Source of the DNA: an uncultured Gammaproteobacteria bacterium
Lineage (GTDB): Bacteria; Patescibacteriota; Microgenomatia; Levybacterales; UBA12049
Direction of reading: 5' to 3'
DNA length: 64,000 bases
Assembly (NCBI GenBank): GCA_964523705.1
Contig: CAZFYA010000002.1
Coordinates: 47,114 to 111,113 of the forward strand
The notes under the pieces were generated by a model, which ran no database searches, was not told where the DNA came from, and worked only from the letters and a program-made list of their open reading frames with translations. Position numbers and translations under genes: made by a program. Below, piece after piece: positions 23,227-30,634 of this stretch (its first letter is position 1; each line of letters begins with the position of its first letter).

Positions 23227-24033
23227 ATGATAAACGTTGTAAAAGCCACAGGTGAAATCGAACCATTTTCTGAAAGTAAACTTAGGTCCTCAATAAAAAG
23301 AGCAGGGGTGCCGGATAACCAAGCAGATCAACTTATTGAATATATTAAGTCAAACTTGTATGACAATATTCATACCTCGCAAATCTACAAATACATTGAG
23401 GACTTTTTCAAAAAAAATAATTCCTATGCAAGATCAAGGTATAGCCTAAAACAAGCCTTAATGGATTTAGGTCCAACCGGATACCCGTTTGAGGATTACG
23501 TTGCTGATATTTTAGAAAATGAAGGATACAAAACAAAGGTAGGGCAAGTTATCCAGGGAAAGTGCATTACTCATGAAATAGATGTTATAGCAGAAAAAGA
23601 TAGCAAAAAAGTAATAATTGAAGCAAAATTCCATAATGCCGCTGGTATTAAGACTGATTGCCATGTTGCTATGTATACAAAAGCAAGGTTTGATGATTTA
23701 TCAAAAATAAACGGTTTTTCAGAAGCTTGGATTATTACCAATACAAAGGTAACTAAGGACGCCCTAAATTTTGCTTTATGTTCAAACATGAAAGTTATTG
23801 GCTGGAACTACCCGAATGGTAATAGCTTAAGAGAAAAAATTGAACACTCAAAACTATTTCCAATAACTGCCCTTACCACTCTTTCCCAAAACCAAAAACA
23901 ACAATTAATGCAAGAACATATAATAATGTGTAAGGACCTTATTAAAAATTTAAATGTTTTAGACTCCTTATCCTTTCAGAAAAATAGAAAAGAAAAAGTA
24001 CTAGAAGAAGCTAGATTTATCTGCAGTGAGTAA
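23227..24033 (+). CDS. ATP-cone domain protein fused to a restriction-endonuclease-like (PD-(D/E)xK, Mrr-like) domain
   Basis: N-terminal ~90 aa (VVKATGEIEPFSESKLRSSIKRAG) resemble an ATP-cone. The central region has HEIDVIAEKDSKKVIIEAKFH (D...ExK-like). Confidence 0.4.
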   Translation: MINVVKATGEIEPFSESKLRSSIKRAGVPDNQADQLIEYIKSNLYDNIHTSQIYKYIEDFFKKNNSYARSRYSLKQALMDLGPTGYPFEDYVADILENEGYKTKVGQVIQGKCITHEIDVIAEKDSKKVIIEAKFHNAAGIKTDCHVAMYTKARFDDLSKINGFSEAWIITNTKVTKDALNFALCSNMKVIGWNYPNGNSLREKIEHSKLFPITALTTLSQNQKQQLMQEHIIMCKDLIKNLNVLDSLSFQKNRKEKVLEEARFICSE

Positions 24034-25417: not shown

Positions 25418-26611
25418 TCAATTAATTTTGTGTACTCTTCTTATTCTCCTAAAAATAGTAAATGCGCCAAATGAACTTATCCCAACAATTGCCGATGCAA
25501 TAAAAAAGGGAGCAGGAATTAAATAACTGTAAGCAAATGTTCCGGCTAGGGGACCAAATAGTCTTCCAAGAGAACCTACTGACTGAAATATTCCCATAAT
25601 GCTTCCTTGTTCATGTTTTGGAGTTAGCTTTGATGCAAGTCCGGTTAAAACAGGATTAACAATTGCGTTTCCAAATGAAAGTATTGTAAATACCAACAAT
25701 AACTCTAACATATTATGGGAAAAAGGAATCAAGAAAAACGAAACTGCCATAAACATAAGACCTAAAACCGCAAGTTTTTTCTCACCTAGAAATCTAACTA
25801 GTCTTTTTAAAAAGACAAATTGAGTAATAACTGAAACTAATCCTGTATATGCAAATACATATCCAACTTGTAAAACACTAAAACCTAACGAATCATTTGC
25901 AAAAAGCGCAAAAGTTCCCTGCAAAAGTGAATGCGCAAACATAAAGAAGAAAAAAAGCATTATAATCATACCGACTACCGGTCTTGACAGTGCGTCTTTA
26001 AATAATTCAATATCAAATAATTTTTTTCTTGTTTTTAAAGGCACCCTGGTTTTATCTAAGCTTTCAGGAAGAAAAAAATAGGTAAGAACAAAGGCAATAA
26101 AAGAGAGCAATGCTGCAAAAAGTGCCGGCACATGATATCCAAATTGTGCAAGAAGACCTCCAATTGATGGACCGAATATAAAACCTAGTCCAAAACCTGC
26201 AGCAATAATACCCATTCCATATGTCCTGTTTTCATCATCTGTAATATCAGCTATATATGCTTGGGCTGCTGAAATATTTCCTCCTGAAATCCCATCAATT
26301 ATTCTTGAAATAAATAAAAGAAATATTGTATTGGCAATTCCAAGAAGAATAAAAGAAATAATAGTTCCAACCATAGAAACTAAAAGAACAGGTCTTCTGC
26401 CAATCTTATCTGACAATTCTCCTAAGATTGGGGAGAATATAAATTGAAATAATGAAAAAGACGCATACAAAAAACCAATTGTTAAGGGGCTTGCACCTAA
26501 ACTTTCGCCATAAAAAGGCAAAAGTGGCAAAATAATCCCAAATCCAACTAGTTGAACAAAAATAATAACAAATATGGTTAAAAACCTTTTATCAATGCTT
26601 AAAATTTTCAT
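25418..26611 (-). CDS. MFS transporter (DHA1-like drug:H+ antiporter family)
   Basis: 12 TM. GELSDKIGRRPVLLVSMVG (MFS motif A). Start taken at MKILSIDKRF (26611). Confidence 0.85.
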   Translation of the reverse strand: MKILSIDKRFLTIFVIIFVQLVGFGIILPLLPFYGESLGASPLTIGFLYASFSLFQFIFSPILGELSDKIGRRPVLLVSMVGTIISFILLGIANTIFLLFISRIIDGISGGNISAAQAYIADITDDENRTYGMGIIAAGFGLGFIFGPSIGGLLAQFGYHVPALFAALLSFIAFVLTYFFLPESLDKTRVPLKTRKKLFDIELFKDALSRPVVGMIIMLFFFFMFAHSLLQGTFALFANDSLGFSVLQVGYVFAYTGLVSVITQFVFLKRLVRFLGEKKLAVLGLMFMAVSFFLIPFSHNMLELLLVFTILSFGNAIVNPVLTGLASKLTPKHEQGSIMGIFQSVGSLGRLFGPLAGTFAYSYLIPAPFFIASAIVGISSFGAFTIFRRIRRVHKIN

Positions 26612-26697
26612 AAAAAAATGGACCTTCCCACCCACAGGAATATTGCATCAGTTTTCAGGCCAGTTTAATACTTGTGGATTGAATCTACTCTTAAATT

Positions 26698-26775
26698 TGG
26701 GGTGGCTGAGGGGAATTGAACCCCCGACCCTCTGGACCACAACCAGATGCTCTAAGCCACTGAGCTACAGCCACC
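26698..26775 (-). tRNA. tRNA-His (anticodon GUG) with genomically encoded G-1 and 3' CCA
   Basis: Reverse complement is G-GTGGCTGTAGCTCAGTGGCTTAGAGCATCTGGTTGTGGTCCAGAGGGTCGGGGGTTCAATTCCCCTCAGCCACC-CCA. Anticodon loop TTGTGGT. The extra 5' G pairs with discriminator C73. Confidence 0.85.
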
Positions 26776-26779
26776 ATTG

Positions 26780-26852
26780 CGACCCGAGCGCGAATCGAAC
26801 GCGCAACCTACTCCTTAGAAGGGAGTTGCTCTATCCGTTGAGCTACCGGGCC
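26780..26852 (-). tRNA. tRNA-Arg (anticodon UCU)
   Basis: Reverse complement is GGCCCGGTAGCTCAACGGATAGAGCAACTCCCTTCTAAGGAGTAGGTTGCGCGTTCGATTCGCGCTCGGGTCG. Anticodon loop CTTCTAA. Confidence 0.8.
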
Positions 26853-26874
26853 ATATTATATAATATATAATTTG

Positions 26875-26946
26875 AGCGGCGGAGCGGATTCGAACCGCCG
26901 ACCTTCTCCTTGGAAGGGAGACATTCTACCACTGAACTACCACCGC
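26875..26946 (-). tRNA. tRNA-Gly (anticodon UCC)
   Basis: Reverse complement is GCGGTGGTAGTTCAGTGGTAGAATGTCTCCCTTCCAAGGAGAAGGTCGGCGGTTCGAATCCGCTCCGCCGCT. Anticodon loop CTTCCAA. Confidence 0.8.
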
Positions 26947-27008
26947 TGATACTACAATTTTACCATTTTTTAGAGGAAAATTAAAATCAGTTTACAAAAA
27001 TTTCTTAA

Positions 27009-27036
27009 TTGACAAAATATAATCTTATAGTATAAT
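27009..27036 (+). promoter_or_regulatory. Consensus sigma-70 promoter (TTGACA-16-TATAAT) driving a leaderless transcript of the 27043 gene
   Basis: TTGACA at 27009-27014, TATAAT at 27031-27036, and ATG at 27043 only 6 nt downstream of the -10. Confidence 0.55.
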
Positions 27037-27042
27037 TCGTTT

Positions 27043-27972
27043 ATGGGAATTAAGGAAAATATAGATAGATTGCAACAAGAAAAACAACGACATATTGCTG
27101 AACAAGAAGCACGGAGAAAGAAAGAAAAAAGAGAAAGGGAAGCTGAGATAAAAAAAAGAGATGTTTTGTTTCAAGCACAAAACCGACTTAACGATGAGAT
27201 TTGCTCCGAAATCTTCCTCCCGCAGCTTATAGAATTAAATGATTTACTTAACTCTTCTAATGGTTCGCATCAAGACCTAAATATATATAAACTAAGCGAA
27301 ACATTTACTGCTATATATTATGGTGGGGAGACCACAGACGGTTGCTGCGTAAACGTAGTCTGTAATGGTTTTGTCTTAGCCGGAGGATACATTAGACGTT
27401 GGAAATTCGCAGCTTTATCTACTATAGGAGGGGAAAGCAAAACATACAGAGATCCAATTTTTGTAGGCAGGATGACTACAGCAAGGGCAATCAGTTGTAA
27501 CGTTGAAGAAAAAGTAGGGGGTTATAAAAAGTACAATTATCATGAAGGTGAAGATAAAGAAAATCATACTGGAATTATTCATGTAAAAAAATACACAGAT
27601 AGTCGTTTTGATGATGAAAACATTTTGGTTTGTGATATGAAAACTCAGAATTCTATAAAAAACTTATTGCTTCCTACTGACGATGGGTGGTTTCTAGGAA
27701 AAAATATTGAAGATAATCAAAGTGTTTTTGCCAGGCTTTTAGTAGATGCTGCAGAAGATGCAAATAAAAAAAATTTGTCAGGAGATGACAGTTTTTTTGT
27801 TGGGAACAATAATTATGGGACCTATAGAATCTATGTTCCATTAACTACTCCATCAGAACTTGATTATTATTTACCTCAAATACAAGATCCAAGATCCGAT
27901 CTAAGAAGGAAACTTAGCGAAAAAAGTGAAGAGATATTTATAGATATAGCTAAACGTAAACTTGGCTTATAA
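27043..27972 (+). CDS. Hypothetical protein (309 aa): N-terminal charged coiled coil, Cys-rich globular C-terminal domain; orphan gene between tRNA clusters
   Basis: Uninterrupted ORF with higher GC than neighbours. No recognised motif. CCVNVVCNG Cys cluster. Confidence 0.5.
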   Translation: MGIKENIDRLQQEKQRHIAEQEARRKKEKREREAEIKKRDVLFQAQNRLNDEICSEIFLPQLIELNDLLNSSNGSHQDLNIYKLSETFTAIYYGGETTDGCCVNVVCNGFVLAGGYIRRWKFAALSTIGGESKTYRDPIFVGRMTTARAISCNVEEKVGGYKKYNYHEGEDKENHTGIIHVKKYTDSRFDDENILVCDMKTQNSIKNLLLPTDDGWFLGKNIEDNQSVFARLLVDAAEDANKKNLSGDDSFFVGNNNYGTYRIYVPLTTPSELDYYLPQIQDPRSDLRRKLSEKSEEIFIDIAKRKLGL

Positions 27973-28102
27973 AACTAGCGTTTGACAACCCGTAAGGAAT
28001 ACTCTTAAATTAAAATGTAGTCTTAAACGTTGTGGGTTTTGAGGCTAGAATTCCGACCTTCTCCTTGCTGAAATTTTCTTTTTAAGCTAAAATAGGGAAT
28101 AC

Positions 28103-28185
28103 GCCGCGGTGGTGGAATGGCAGACACGAAGGCCTTAAGAGCCTTTGTCCGTAAGGACGTGAGAGTTCGACTCTCTCTCGCGGTA
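28103..28185 (+). tRNA. tRNA-Leu (anticodon UAA)
   Basis: GCCGCGGTGGTGGAATGGCAGACACGAAGGCCTTAAGAGCCTTTGTCCGTAAGGACGTGAGAGTTCGACTCTCTCTCGCGGTA. Long variable arm. Anticodon loop CTTAAGA. Confidence 0.8.
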
Positions 28186-28189
28186 CAAA

Positions 28190-29107
28190 TTAAACCTTAT
28201 TTAATTCTCCTTTAGATTTTAGATAAAAATAACCAATCATAAAGAAAGTAACAACAGGGGAAATACCAGCCGGAACATCATGACCAAAGCCTTCCAAAAG
28301 CATTATTACACCAAGCGCTAAAATTGAATACATTGCTCCATTTTTAAGATATCTAAATTTTTTTACTCTTTGAATATTACTAATAGTTAAGTTTCTCAAT
28401 ACTATTGCGCCAATACCATTTCCCAAAAAAATTAAAGGAACAGAAAAAGTAAAAGCAAAAGCTCCCAAAACCCCATCTATTGAAAAAGAGGCGTCAATTG
28501 CTTCTAAATATAAAAGCTTACTGATGTCTGACTTTCCACTATTTTTCGTTAATTTTCTTTCTTCCTGTTCTGCATATTGTTTAAATCCATGCGTTATAAA
28601 AAATATTGTAGAACCAAGTACAATTCCAAATGCTAATATTGGCTTTACTTCAAGACCAAACCAAACTAAAACAGTTAATAAAATTGAAACAACAGCATAA
28701 AACCATGCTCCTTGTTTTTGAAATAACGGTTCTATTCTTAAGCCAAAGTTTTTCGGTTCAATAAATAACCAATGCAAAAACAAAAAAACCAAAAATGTTC
28801 CACCTAAAGCTAAAAGCACTTCAAACGATTCATGAATTGCTTTTAAAGTACTTTTATCTGCTGAGAATGTTGCTGTAAGAGAGCCGATTGGACCAAGTGA
28901 TGGGTTTGCTATCCAAACAACTGCCCAGGGTAAAATACCCCTCATTAAAAATACAGCAAAGAAAATTCCCCAGGTTAAAAACCACTTCTTGGCTTTTTCC
29001 TGCATTGTTGATAAAACTTCAGCATTAATAATTGCATTATCTATACTTGATACAATTTCAAATGCACAAAGCCCAAGAACTGTTAGTAATAAAAAGAAAA
29101 TATCCAC
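28190..29107 (-). CDS. TerC/DUF475-family integral membrane protein
   Basis: EIVSSIDNAIINA and LEAIDASFSIDGVLGAFAFT repeat signatures typical of the TerC/YkoY-like family. About 9 TM. Confidence 0.5.
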   Translation of the reverse strand: MDIFFLLLTVLGLCAFEIVSSIDNAIINAEVLSTMQEKAKKWFLTWGIFFAVFLMRGILPWAVVWIANPSLGPIGSLTATFSADKSTLKAIHESFEVLLALGGTFLVFLFLHWLFIEPKNFGLRIEPLFQKQGAWFYAVVSILLTVLVWFGLEVKPILAFGIVLGSTIFFITHGFKQYAEQEERKLTKNSGKSDISKLLYLEAIDASFSIDGVLGAFAFTFSVPLIFLGNGIGAIVLRNLTISNIQRVKKFRYLKNGAMYSILALGVIMLLEGFGHDVPAGISPVVTFFMIGYFYLKSKGELNKV

Positions 29108-29971: not shown

Positions 29972-30634
29972 TTGTTTAAAAATATGGATTTATCAGACTT
30001 AGGTTCATTAGGAGATCTTGCAAAACAAATGGAAAATGCCTATTCAGAAGGAACAAAGGCAATGAGTCAAGCAGGAAAAGAAGTTGCAAAGGATATAAAG
30101 CCTGACTATAAAATTGTGGCAGATGTAAAAGCGTCGGCAAAAGTAGAAGGGCATAACTATAATGTTGATGCAACTATAACTTTTAATATTGAACTTGAAT
30201 CAGTGCTTCAAGCCGCTAACTCACCACTGGGAGACTTATCTTCTATATTAGATGGAATTGATACTAATCTTGGTGACAATAAAGATGCAGTAATAGAGCA
30301 ACTTAAACAGCCACGAGCAATAGGCGTGGTAAAAAATATCAAACTTAGAAAATTAGATTTATTCAACAATAAAGGAAAAGTAAAAGCCGAATTAAACAAA
30401 GACGGAACCCTGCTTGCAACTATTAAAGATGGAAAAATTCTGATAAACTTTGAGAGCGTTTTATCTTACCCAAAGCATTCAGATGTATATGTAGCAATAC
30501 CTACTATGGAAAAAATGCAAAAAAATATTGTAGTTAATATTAAGAATATTGAATCAAAAATTGATTTTAGTTGGACTGAAAAAGACAAAGATAATCTTAA
30601 AGTATCCGGAAGTCTAAAGTTTTCTAAAATTTAG
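29972..30634 (+). CDS. Hypothetical protein (220 aa)
   Basis: ORF immediately after tRNA-Pro. No motif recognised. Confidence 0.4.
   Translation: MFKNMDLSDLGSLGDLAKQMENAYSEGTKAMSQAGKEVAKDIKPDYKIVADVKASAKVEGHNYNVDATITFNIELESVLQAANSPLGDLSSILDGIDTNLGDNKDAVIEQLKQPRAIGVVKNIKLRKLDLFNNKGKVKAELNKDGTLLATIKDGKILINFESVLSYPKHSDVYVAIPTMEKMQKNIVVNIKNIESKIDFSWTEKDKDNLKVSGSLKFSKI

What the first reader, a model, noticed from the sequence alone, without database searches (positions are those of the whole stretch)
27009..27972. Orphan 309-aa protein under a textbook promoter, embedded between two tRNA clusters
The gene at 27043-27972 lies between the tRNA-His/Arg/Gly cluster and tRNA-Leu(UAA). It has a consensus TTGACA-16-TATAAT promoter whose -10 ends 6 nt before the ATG, so the mRNA would be leaderless. 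The protein has a charged N-terminal coiled coil and a Cys-containing globular domain, and I can place it in no family. Its GC is above the local background. tRNA-flanked singletons with strong promoters are typical of accessory, defense or phage-derived cargo.
Basis: partly seen in the sequence, partly recalled or inferred. Interest (0 to 1): 0.55.

Follow-up and report, generated by a model that had tools for sequence, protein, structure and literature searches.

The report
Fast-evolving accessory gene cassette at tRNA-Gly
The gene is real and belongs to a tiny, unnamed, very fast-evolving protein family of Microgenomates (candidate phyla radiation) bacteria; it carries its own conserved strong promoter, has no mRNA leader, and sits in a small insertion at a glycine tRNA gene, but what the protein does is still unknown.

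Summary
The ORF (27043-27972, 309 aa), the perfect TTGACA-16-TATAAT promoter (27009-27036) and the 6-nt gap to the ATG are all real. The GC claim is not: 34.0% against 32.3±2.7% for window genes, with ordinary codon usage. Leaderless layout is normal in this genome.

The protein matches no curated family, phage or plasmid. It does have a few distant relatives (239-315 aa) in Microgenomates, including Levybacteria. All keep the same promoter, spacer included (AATCYYRTAG), and the N-terminus MGxKExxExL.

The gene is bracketed by tRNA-Gly(UCC) and a tRNA-Gly pseudo-fragment (28036-28067). The closest genome without the gene has tRNA-Gly and tRNA-Leu 94 nt apart. A second species carries a second cassette with the same ends.

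In one Levybacteria species, two alleles only 26% identical coexist in the same samples, in genomes 99.9% identical up to ftsZ.

Best reading: accessory single-gene cassette in a recombination hot spot, under purifying selection (dN/dS 0.34). A role in defence or immunity is a low-confidence guess. Phage origin is not supported.

The parts
26874..26946 (-). Functional tRNA-Gly(UCC), the left boundary. Its 5' half plus upstream flank is the sequence repeated at cassette junctions in the related species.
   Evidence: ARAGORN and Rfam. It is 100% identical to the L002 tRNA-Gly but only 68.5% identical to the L004 one, while the neighbouring tRNAs are 92-100% identical. In L002 the 5' half occurs three times in direct orientation.
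26947..27008 (.). Flank 'F' between the tRNA-Gly 5' end and the -35 box. It travels with the tRNA 5' half and presumably holds the promoter of the minus-strand tRNA operon.
   Evidence: It is part of the 94-nt direct repeat (88% identity) in L002. The stretch from the tRNA-Gly 5' end to the ATG (26947-27042) is 88.5% identical between window and L002. F is not homologous to the ancestral spacer seen in L004 (z = -0.8).
27009..27036 (+). Consensus sigma-70-type promoter TTGACA-16-TATAAT, with the family-conserved spacer core AATCTTATAG.
   Evidence: 12 of 12 match and the only one in the window. The same layout and spacer core occur in homologues found by protein similarity alone (L002, L019, L020, L036).
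27043..27972 (+). Leaderless protein-coding gene of 309 aa: conserved N-terminus MGIKENIDRL, ER/K helix, alpha/beta core with a lineage-specific insertion of about 90 aa, and conserved C-terminal helices.
   Evidence: dN/dS is 0.34 against the 74%-identical homologue. AlphaFold2 model: pLDDT 55, pTM 0.57.
28018..28052 (.). Conserved right-end block of the cassette (TAGTCTTAAACGTTGTGGGTTTTGAGGCTAGAATT).
   Evidence: GTTTTGAGGCTAGAATT matches 17 of 17 with L002 6590-6606, which is the right end of that genome's second cassette. TAGTCTTAAAyGT is shared with L002 downstream of its copy of the gene.
28053..28067 (.). tRNA-Gly pseudo-fragment (CCGACCTTCTCCTTG), a direct repeat of 26898-26912.
   Evidence: Exact 15-nt direct repeat. 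Together with the preceding block it aligns to the degenerate tRNA-Gly copy of L002.
28103..28186 (+). tRNA-Leu(UAA), the right neighbour. It is outside the cassette and marks the ancestral partner of tRNA-Gly.
   Evidence: In L004 it lies 94 nt from tRNA-Gly with no gene in between.

Best explanation
The gene codes for a real, soluble cytoplasmic protein. It belongs to a small, undescribed and very fast-evolving family confined to Microgenomates-group Patescibacteria (candidate phyla radiation).

Shown:
- The gene is a self-contained expression unit. A consensus -35/-10 promoter is conserved, spacer included, in every family member, and it sits 6 nt before the ATG.
- The unit lies inside an insertion of about 1.15 kb (roughly 26913-28067) at the tRNA-Gly(UCC) gene. 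On the left is a functional tRNA-Gly whose 5' half and upstream flank came with the insert. On the right is a conserved end block plus a decayed tRNA-Gly piece.
- A related species has the same gene and a second, unrelated cassette with the same ends.
- A genome without the gene has tRNA-Gly next to tRNA-Leu.
- Elsewhere the family occupies strain-variable spots, with alleles that diverge extremely fast.

Inferred:
- Transcription starts at the A of the ATG, and the leaderless mRNA is translated directly.
- The cassettes entered by recombination through the tRNA-Gly sequence. This could be site-specific with a recombinase supplied in trans, or Campbell-type homologous recombination.
- The protein is a helical stalk, built from the N-terminal ER/K helix and the C-terminal helices, that carries a variable alpha/beta head.
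- The head recognises a variable partner in a genetic-conflict setting such as defence, immunity or exclusion. I put this functional step at about 0.3 only. I put the genomic reading (accessory cassette in a recombination hot spot) at about 0.7.
For: Real gene:
- pN 0.149 against pS 0.363, dN/dS 0.34 over 307 codons versus P0002.
- Synonymous changes within the conserved first 10 codons across lineages.

Family:
- The exhaustive HMMER search found only P0003 and P0004 (E about 1e-5) besides the query itself. P0002 and P0006 came from the word-indexed searches.
- A 239-aa member in L023, found only through the promoter DNA motif, scores E = 1e-20 against a profile that did not include it.
- P0007 is annotated as a Levybacteria hypothetical protein.

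Promoter:
- The layout TTGACW-N6-AATCYYRTAG-TATAAT-N6-ATG is identical in lineages with about 25% protein identity, while their upstream flanks are unrelated.
- The motif is unique in the window.

Insertion:
- A 15-nt exact tRNA-Gly repeat plus a 17-nt end block lie downstream of the gene.
- L002 has three direct copies of the tRNA-Gly 5' half that delimit two cassettes.
- The sequence after the third copy is homologous to the L004 empty-site spacer (58 of 76 identical, z = 3.2). The flank next to the functional tRNA is not.
- L004 has tRNA-Gly and tRNA-Leu 94 nt apart.
- The gene's dS (0.50) is lower than that of its neighbours (1.09 and 1.33).

Hypervariability:
- L019 and L036 are 99.95% identical over 8,135 bp up to the ftsZ stop, and seven proteins are 100% identical. 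The family proteins are only 26% identical.
- The right flank is 94% identical and the promoter patch 86-87%.
- Both alleles occur in the same samples (Ga0100388 and Ga0210057).
- Neighbours are MazE-Fic, HATPase_c/DUF4325, an rve transposase, an IS200 transposase and DUF3800.

Architecture:
- Helix over residues 3-71, beta core, helices over 270-307, and no transmembrane segment.
- The shorter proteins (161-184 aa) share only the N-terminal module (hhalign 90%).
Against: - No recombinase lies in or next to the cassette.
- Composition and codon usage are fully native.
- Only one empty-site genome is available. It is a fairly distant relative (TerC 83% identical) with a different tRNA-Gly sequence, so loss in that lineage cannot be excluded.
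- The lower dS could instead reflect synonymous constraint in a highly expressed gene, and the nucleotide identity differs only modestly (85.7% against 81-82%).
- The duplicated tRNA part is the 5' half plus the upstream flank. Known tRNA-targeting integrases duplicate the 3' part.
- The functional guess has no homology support. There is no PADLOC or Pfam hit for any member, and the fold matches are weak and generic.
- Part of the promoter evidence comes from a motif-based search and is therefore ascertainment-biased.
- No expression data exist.
Confidence: 0.55

Rival explanations
1. It is a resident, lineage-specific housekeeping or structural protein, for example a charged-helix cytoskeletal or division-associated factor. 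It happens to lie among tRNA genes, and the L004 lineage simply lost it.
For: - It is single-copy, under purifying selection and driven by a strong promoter.
- Composition is native.
- In Levybacteria it lies just after ftsA-ftsZ, and allele 1 is stable across 59 sample blocks.
Against: - The family is extremely rare. There are about six lineages among 1.8 billion representative proteins.
- Context is not conserved between lineages: tRNA cluster, end of the dcw cluster, transposase island.
- Alleles are 26% identical within genomes that are 99.9% identical.
- tRNA-Gly repeats bracket the gene.
Confidence: 0.12
2. The tRNA-Gly copies arose by local tandem duplication and decay, not by integration. 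The gene was captured or arose between the copies, and the similar 'ends' in L002 reflect repeated unequal crossing-over.
For: - The pseudo-copies look like decayed full-length tRNA-Gly genes rather than short att cores.
- There is no integrase.
- Composition is native.
- Many tRNA genes are packed into this region.
Against: - The flank next to the functional tRNA differs from the ancestral spacer, which instead follows the outermost pseudo-copy.
- Two unrelated cargos share the same left repeat (94 nt, 88%) and right end block (17 of 17).
- The gene's dS is lower than that of its neighbours.
Confidence: 0.15
3. It is a leftover of a larger integrated element or prophage that lost its integrase and other genes. 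The surviving gene is a former element function such as exclusion or anti-defence.
For: - tRNA bracket.
- Self-contained promoter of a type different from the host's usual TGn-extended -10 promoters.
- IS and transposase neighbours in other lineages.
- One weak PHROGs hit (E = 6e-4).
Against: - No homologue or fold match in phage, plasmid, IMG/VR or BFVD collections.
- Promoter and att-like sequences are absent from viral contigs beyond chance.
- Purifying selection still acts on the gene.
- The cassette boundaries are tight around a single gene in two species.
Confidence: 0.12
4. It is a chance ORF or mis-called gene under a chance promoter match.
For: The genome is AT-rich, and promoter-like hits in general are not enriched over shuffles (9 found against 10.6 expected).
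Against: - A 309-codon ORF is conserved at 74% amino-acid identity with dN/dS 0.34.
- Distant homologues carry the same promoter.
- Only 0.12 perfect promoters are expected per window.
Confidence: 0.01

Closest known systems
tRNA-gene-targeted genomic islands and integrative elements (Williams 2002, Nucleic Acids Res; cited from my own knowledge)
   Same: An intact tRNA gene lies at one end and a direct repeat of part of that tRNA at the other. Two cargos sit in tandem at the same tRNA. A related genome has an empty site.
   Different: The insert is only about 1.15 kb with one gene and no integrase. The repeat covers the 5' half of the tRNA plus its upstream promoter flank, not the 3' end. Composition is not foreign.
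Integron gene cassettes
   Same: Single-gene units with conserved ends accumulate in series at one site. Related organisms show arrays of small unrelated genes (L020, L023).
   Different: Each unit has its own promoter. I saw no attC-like inverted repeat, although I made no dedicated attC search, and the window was not screened for an integron integrase (IntI). The target is a tRNA gene.
Leaderless mRNAs with a -10 box 6-7 nt before the start codon, as mapped in Mycobacterium and Streptomyces (references listed in PMC12641261; the rest from my own knowledge)
   Same: Same geometry and no Shine-Dalgarno site. The layout is widespread in this genome: 9-11 of 56 genes have the -10 ending 6-7 nt before the start, and 14 of 56 within 5-8 nt.
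   Different: This promoter has a perfect -35 and a family-conserved spacer. The conserved unit extends into the first codons (ATGGG...).
Strain-variable hot-spot or 'defence island' loci next to toxin-antitoxin modules
   Same: Very divergent alleles are swapped between nearly identical genomes. Neighbours include MazE-Fic, HATPase_c/DUF4325 and transposases.
   Different: No member matches any known or candidate defence protein model. In the window itself there is no neighbouring defence gene.
Frataxin/CyaY-like alpha-beta sandwich fold
Flagellin-type layout (conserved terminal helices, hypervariable middle), as an analogy only
   Same: The N- and C-terminal helical regions are conserved, the central beta-rich region is highly variable between strains, and the promoter is strong.
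   Different: No sequence or Pfam similarity, no export signal, and no flagellar genes nearby.

Membership tests
tRNA-targeted integrative element / genomic islet | Intact tRNA gene at one end and a direct repeat of a tRNA segment at the other | tested here: met
   tRNA-Gly lies at 26874-26946 and the repeat at 28053-28067 (15 of 15). L002 has three direct copies of the 5' half.
tRNA-targeted integrative element / genomic islet | Empty site in a related genome | tested here: met
   In L004 tRNA-Gly and tRNA-Leu are 94 nt apart. That spacer is homologous to the sequence beyond the outer pseudo-copy in L002. Only one such genome is available, and it is a fairly distant relative.
tRNA-targeted integrative element / genomic islet | Integrase or recombinase gene inside the element | tested here: not met
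   The insert holds one ORF with no Pfam, NCBIfam or PHROGs recombinase match. The L002 second cassette holds a protein that I read by eye as acyltransferase-like (it has no recorded Pfam hit) and an alpha/beta hydrolase.
tRNA-targeted integrative element / genomic islet | Duplicated segment runs to the 3' end of the tRNA | tested here: not met
   The well-preserved repeat is the 5' half plus about 50 nt of upstream flank.
tRNA-targeted integrative element / genomic islet | Deviant base composition or codon usage | tested here: not met
   GC is 34.0% against 32.3 +/- 2.7%, GC3 is 0.227 against 0.229, and codon distance ranks 23rd of 56.
Leaderless mRNA gene | -10 box about 6-7 nt before the start codon and no Shine-Dalgarno site | tested here: met
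   TATAAT ends at 27036 and the ATG is at 27043. The same geometry occurs in all homologues. There is a genome-wide peak at 6-7 nt.
Leaderless mRNA gene | Mapped transcription start at the start codon | not testable with these tools
   This needs 5'-end RNA mapping.
Known anti-phage defence systems (PADLOC) | Match to a defence protein model | tested here: not met
   No hits for P0001, P0002, P0004, P0006 or P0007.
Known anti-phage defence systems (PADLOC) | Location in a defence island | tested here: inconclusive
   The Levybacteria copies lie next to MazE-Fic or HATPase_c/DUF4325. The Fic protein hits candidate PDC models. The window copy has only tRNAs, an MFS transporter and TerC as neighbours.
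Phage or prophage gene | Homologue or fold relative in phage collections, or phage genes nearby | tested here: not met
   There is no tblastn hit in 50,697 phage records, no IMG/VR relative and no BFVD fold match. One weak PHROGs hit has unknown function.
Toxin-antitoxin module | Co-oriented small partner gene in the same operon | tested here: not met
   The gene is a singleton with its own promoter in the window and in L002. In Levybacteria the neighbouring MazE-Fic pair is complete without it.
Integron cassette | attC recombination site and an IntI integrase | not tested
   The repeat scan of 26600-28300 listed only three imperfect short inverted-repeat pairs, none at the cassette ends. I made no dedicated attC search and did not screen the window for an integron integrase.
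Frataxin/CyaY fold | Confident structural superposition | tested here: inconclusive

The most novel reading that the evidence does not exclude
Microgenomates genomes may carry a previously unrecognised class of integrase-less, single-gene 'plug-in' cassettes. Each would bring a conserved leaderless promoter module. At tRNA-Gly, each would also bring a replacement tRNA 5' half plus promoter. The cassettes would be exchanged between strains at a few hot spots. The MGxKE family would be their signature cargo: a stalk-and-variable-head recognition protein acting as a new kind of defence or immunity specificity factor, maintained by frequency-dependent selection.
Probability: 0.15. Interest if true: 0.75.

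Novelty: new variant of a known kind. Interest (0 to 1): 0.45.

Why it matters
Candidate phyla radiation bacteria are mostly uncultured, and a large share of their genes have no known function. This locus gives a concrete handle on three things.

- It shows how these small genomes gain and swap accessory genes. The cassettes are tiny, bracketed by tRNA sequence, and carry no recombinase of their own.
- It provides a conserved leaderless promoter module. That module could serve as a marker for such cargo and as a tool for expression studies.
- It identifies a protein family whose alleles differ by about 74% within a single species. Divergence of that size normally marks genes in an arms race.

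If the family proves to be a defence or immunity determinant, it would be a new one. If not, the result is still a clean example of strain-level gene replacement in these bacteria.

Tried and rejected
**Hypotheses tested and rejected**
- Curated family assignment. Pfam, NCBIfam and PADLOC gave nothing, and PHROGs gave only one weak hit of unknown function.
- Similarity to solved structures by sequence profile. Only chance glutathione S-transferase hits appeared (E >= 0.055).
- Phage or plasmid origin. No hits. The 44 matches of the 16-mer spacer in IMG/VR are at about chance level, and none has the -35 box or the ATG. The att-like sequences are absent from viral contigs.
- GC or codon-usage anomaly.
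- A non-coding RNA in the region. Only the tRNAs were found.
- Paralogues in the window. None.
- A transmembrane or secreted protein. There is no hydrophobic segment.
- A diversity-generating retroelement. The divergence spans the whole protein, and no reverse transcriptase turned up in the loci whose genes I annotated.
- A metal-binding cysteine motif. The cysteines are not conserved beyond the closest homologue.

**Approaches that failed or were unavailable**
- The first AlphaFold2 run with 2 sequences was unusable (pLDDT 35).
- The AlphaFold database fold library (afdb50) was not available.
- The genome-contig scan with the protein used only N-terminal peptide patterns and found nothing.
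- The word-indexed homologue searches were swamped by charged-helix words and missed known members.
- Literature searches for leaderless transcription in these bacteria found nothing relevant.
Full report
**1. What is in the sequence**

The ORF at 27043-27972 (+, 309 aa) is present as described. Its ATG is the first start codon after an in-frame stop four codons upstream. It lies between tRNA-His/Arg/Gly (26698-26946, minus strand) and tRNA-Leu(UAA) (28103-28186, plus strand).

TTGACA-16-TATAAT at 27009-27036 matches the consensus at 12 of 12 positions. It is the only such site in the 64-kb window, where 0.12 are expected by chance. The -10 box ends 6 nt before the ATG.

No sizeable ORF lies on the opposite strand. 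No terminator-like hairpin follows the gene.

The GC claim fails. The gene is 34.0% GC. The window is 32.5%, and window ORFs average 32.3 +/- 2.7%. GC3 and codon usage are average.

**2. The host and its promoter style**

Neighbouring genes are ordinary chromosomal genes: DUF2079, an ATP-cone/Mrr-like protein, a DinB-type polymerase, an MFS transporter, TerC, a D-Ala-D-Ala carboxypeptidase and TruB.

Relatives of the TerC neighbour come from Patescibacteria genome bins, including Curtissbacteria and Roizmanbacteria. A family member is annotated in Candidatus Levybacteria, which belongs to the Microgenomates group.

The leaderless layout is the norm in this genome.
- Exact TATAAT boxes peak sharply 6-7 nt before the first start codon: 9 of 56 likely genes, or 11 of 56 allowing one mismatch.
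- 14 of 56 likely genes have a -10-like box ending 5-8 nt before the start.
- Most of these promoters are TGnTATAAT without a -35 box. The promoter studied here instead has a perfect -35 and no TGn.

**3. It is a real gene, and not quite an orphan**

Pfam, NCBIfam and PADLOC give nothing, and PHROGs gives one weak hit of unknown function.

The 5.8-billion-protein search found only the query itself and P0002 (315 aa; 72% identical by BLASTP, 74% in the alignment). Against P0002, dN/dS is 0.34, so the gene is under purifying selection. That selection is looser than on the neighbours, where dN/dS is 0.12 for TerC and 0.075 for the 193-aa gene.

The exhaustive HMMER search added two distant homologues, P0003 and P0004 (E about 1e-5). 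A later search added P0006.

The long members (239-315 aa) share several features:
- the N-terminus MGxKExxExL;
- a charged helix;
- an IFxPxLxELxxLLN helix;
- a diverged beta-rich middle;
- IPxTTPE...DPxSDL and C-terminal helices that, in most members, end in LPE[FY].

The window protein and P0002 have an extra insertion of about 90 residues. Residues 11-41 are 65% charged with almost no hydrophobic positions, and the protein has no transmembrane segment.

With five sequences, AlphaFold2 gives pLDDT 55 and pTM 0.57. The helix over 3-71 and the C-terminal helices over 270-307 are confident, and the insertion is unresolved.

**4. The promoter is part of the family**

Four lineages were found by protein similarity alone: window/L002, L019, L020 and L036. 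All carry the same unit: TTGAC[AT], six bases, AATCYYRTAG, TATAAT, six bases, ATG. Their upstream flanks are unrelated, and their protein identity is only about 25%.

I scanned public metagenome contigs for that DNA pattern and recovered 15 loci.
- Most encode proteins that start with MG followed by a charged helix.
- One is a 239-aa protein that scores E = 1e-20 against a family profile built without it.
- Shorter proteins (161-184 aa) share only the N-terminal module (hhalign 90%, E = 1e-6).
- A few unrelated ORFs also sit behind the same promoter (L028, L031, L034). Some hits are probably chance (L024, L032).

The motif is unique in the window. Synonymous sites are saturated at this protein distance, so a conserved spacer implies selection on the DNA itself. 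It could be a regulator site or a special polymerase contact. I could not tell which.

**5. The gene sits in an insertion at tRNA-Gly**

Downstream of the gene, 28053-28067 repeats 15 nt of tRNA-Gly exactly. The preceding 17 nt (28036-28052) are identical to a block in L002.

In L002 the 5' half of tRNA-Gly occurs three times in direct orientation:
- as part of the functional tRNA;
- as a pseudo-copy with a degenerate 3' half just upstream of the family gene, where the repeat runs 94 nt at 88% identity and includes about 50 nt of upstream flank;
- as a third copy downstream of the gene.

Between the first two copies lie two unrelated genes. One has no recorded Pfam hit and looks acyltransferase-like to me; the other is an alpha/beta hydrolase.

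The closest TerC relative, L004 (83% identical), has tRNA-Gly and tRNA-Leu only 94 nt apart and no gene between them. That spacer is homologous to the sequence following the third copy in L002 (58 of 76 identical, z = 3.2). It is not homologous to the flank beside the functional tRNA.

The simplest reading has four parts.
- The outermost pseudo-copy marks the ancestral tRNA-Gly position.
- Each cassette entered through the tRNA sequence and brought a new 5' half plus an upstream flank.
- Each cassette left a conserved end block plus a decayed tRNA piece on its right.
- The window then lost the ancestral 5' half by a small deletion.

Two further points are consistent with this. The gene's dS (0.50) is lower than that of its neighbours (1.09 and 1.33), although the nucleotide identities differ only modestly. 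The tRNA-Gly is only 68.5% identical between the window and L004, while tRNA-Arg, tRNA-Leu and tRNA-Pro are 92-100% identical.

Several facts weigh against a classical integrative element. There is no recombinase. The repeat covers the 5' part of the tRNA rather than the 3' part. Composition is native. Only one empty-site genome is available.

**6. Elsewhere the family is a strain-level hot spot**

In a Levybacteria species the gene follows the dcw cluster.
- Contigs L019 and L036 are 99.95% identical over 8,135 bp, exactly up to the ftsZ stop codon, and seven proteins are 100% identical.
- After that point one contig has MazE-Fic plus a 247-aa family gene. That gene is cut to 241 aa in L019, where homology to the uninterrupted copy ends and the reverse strand encodes what I read by eye as an IS3-like transposase.
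- The other contig has HATPase_c/DUF4325, a MazE remnant and a 278-aa family gene.
- The two family proteins are 26% identical.
- The 211-bp patch covering the promoter and the first 30 nt of the ORF is 86-87% identical, and the right flank is 94% identical.
- Both alleles occur in the same samples.
- Allele 1 is stable across 59 sample blocks.

Other members lie near a small gene that I read by eye as HicB-like (it has no Pfam hit), and near an IS200-type transposase, DUF3800 and an rve transposase. So the coding body of this gene diverges far faster than the DNA around it, or it is replaced by recombination.

**7. Interpretation**

Shown:
- It is a real gene with a family-specific leaderless promoter module.
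- It lies in a tRNA-bracketed insertion.
- The family is rare, lineage-restricted and hypervariable.

Inferred:
- Transcription starts at the ATG.
- The cassettes entered by recombination through tRNA-Gly, with any enzyme supplied in trans.
- The protein is a helical stalk carrying a variable head.
- It has a role in a genetic conflict such as defence, immunity or exclusion. This last step rests only on its evolutionary behaviour and its neighbours, and I give it about 0.3.

Phage origin found no support.

**8. Verdict**

Its 'accessory cargo' reading is supported. The 'defence or phage' reading is not shown.

The locus is a new variant of known themes: a tRNA-associated islet, a strain-variable hot-spot gene and leaderless expression. 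It encodes an undescribed protein family. Interest is moderate: the conserved promoter cassette and the 26%-identical coexisting alleles are notable, but the function remains open.

Noticed in passing
window, whole (for example starts at 6557-, 29107-, 40544-, 41042-, 41668-, 43062+, 44198+, 53264+, 63030-): Leaderless layout is genome-wide. TATAAT boxes peak 6-7 nt before start codons: 9 of 56 likely genes exact, 11 of 56 with one mismatch, and 14 of 56 within 5-8 nt. Most are TGnTATAAT extended -10 promoters without a -35 box.
   Followed up: partly
window 29972-30634 (+): A gene of about 216-220 aa with no Pfam hit lies between tRNA-Pro(UGG) and the carboxypeptidase gene. It is absent from L001 and L002, where tRNA-Pro directly abuts that gene. 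This is a second tRNA-adjacent insertion.
   Followed up: partly
window 23227-24033 (+): A 268-aa protein combines an ATP-cone, an Mrr-type restriction endonuclease domain and an AF1548-like C-terminal domain, which is an unusual fusion. It gives weak PADLOC hits (CARF_PDDEXK, PDC-S02).
   Followed up: no
window 26874-26946 versus L004 7638-7709: tRNA-Gly(UCC) is only 68.5% identical between the window and L004, while tRNA-Arg, tRNA-Leu and tRNA-Pro at the same locus are 96%, 92% and 100% identical. One lineage appears to have had its tRNA-Gly replaced.
   Followed up: partly
L004 7042-7302 and 7738-8079: The 'empty-site' genome has its own small insertions in the same tRNA cluster. One is an 86-aa ORF between tRNA-Leu and TerC that looks GIY-YIG-like by eye (not checked against Pfam). 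The other is a 113-aa ORF between tRNA-Gly and tRNA-Arg.
   Followed up: no
L020 521-540 and 1386-1403; L023 about 2358, 3142, 4522, 6368 (-); L028 655, 775: A repeated motif GGGAAAATTTGGATTTGAAAC precedes the promoters of several small leaderless genes arranged in arrays. It may be a second conserved promoter or upstream element, or a cassette boundary. It is absent from the window.
   Followed up: partly
L019 9693-10122: Homology to the uninterrupted copy of the gene (L033) ends at L019 9693. From there the reverse strand encodes what looks by eye like an IS3/rve transposase (not checked against Pfam). This changes the C-terminus of the family protein: 241 aa ending in ...QCVKYPFL instead of 247 aa ending in ...SKLPEFR. 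L044 has an rve transposase just upstream of MazE.
   Followed up: partly
L004, L007, L008, L010, L013, L014, L016 (record titles): Several public genome bins with close, syntenic relatives of this Patescibacteria-type TerC locus are titled 'uncultured Gammaproteobacteria' or 'Methanosarcinales'. These are probably mislabelled taxonomy.
   Followed up: no
L002 4942-4959: The first gene of the second cassette, which looks acyltransferase-like to me by eye, is also leaderless (TGATATAAT, six bases, ATG). Both cassettes at this tRNA-Gly therefore bring their own leaderless promoter.
   Followed up: partly
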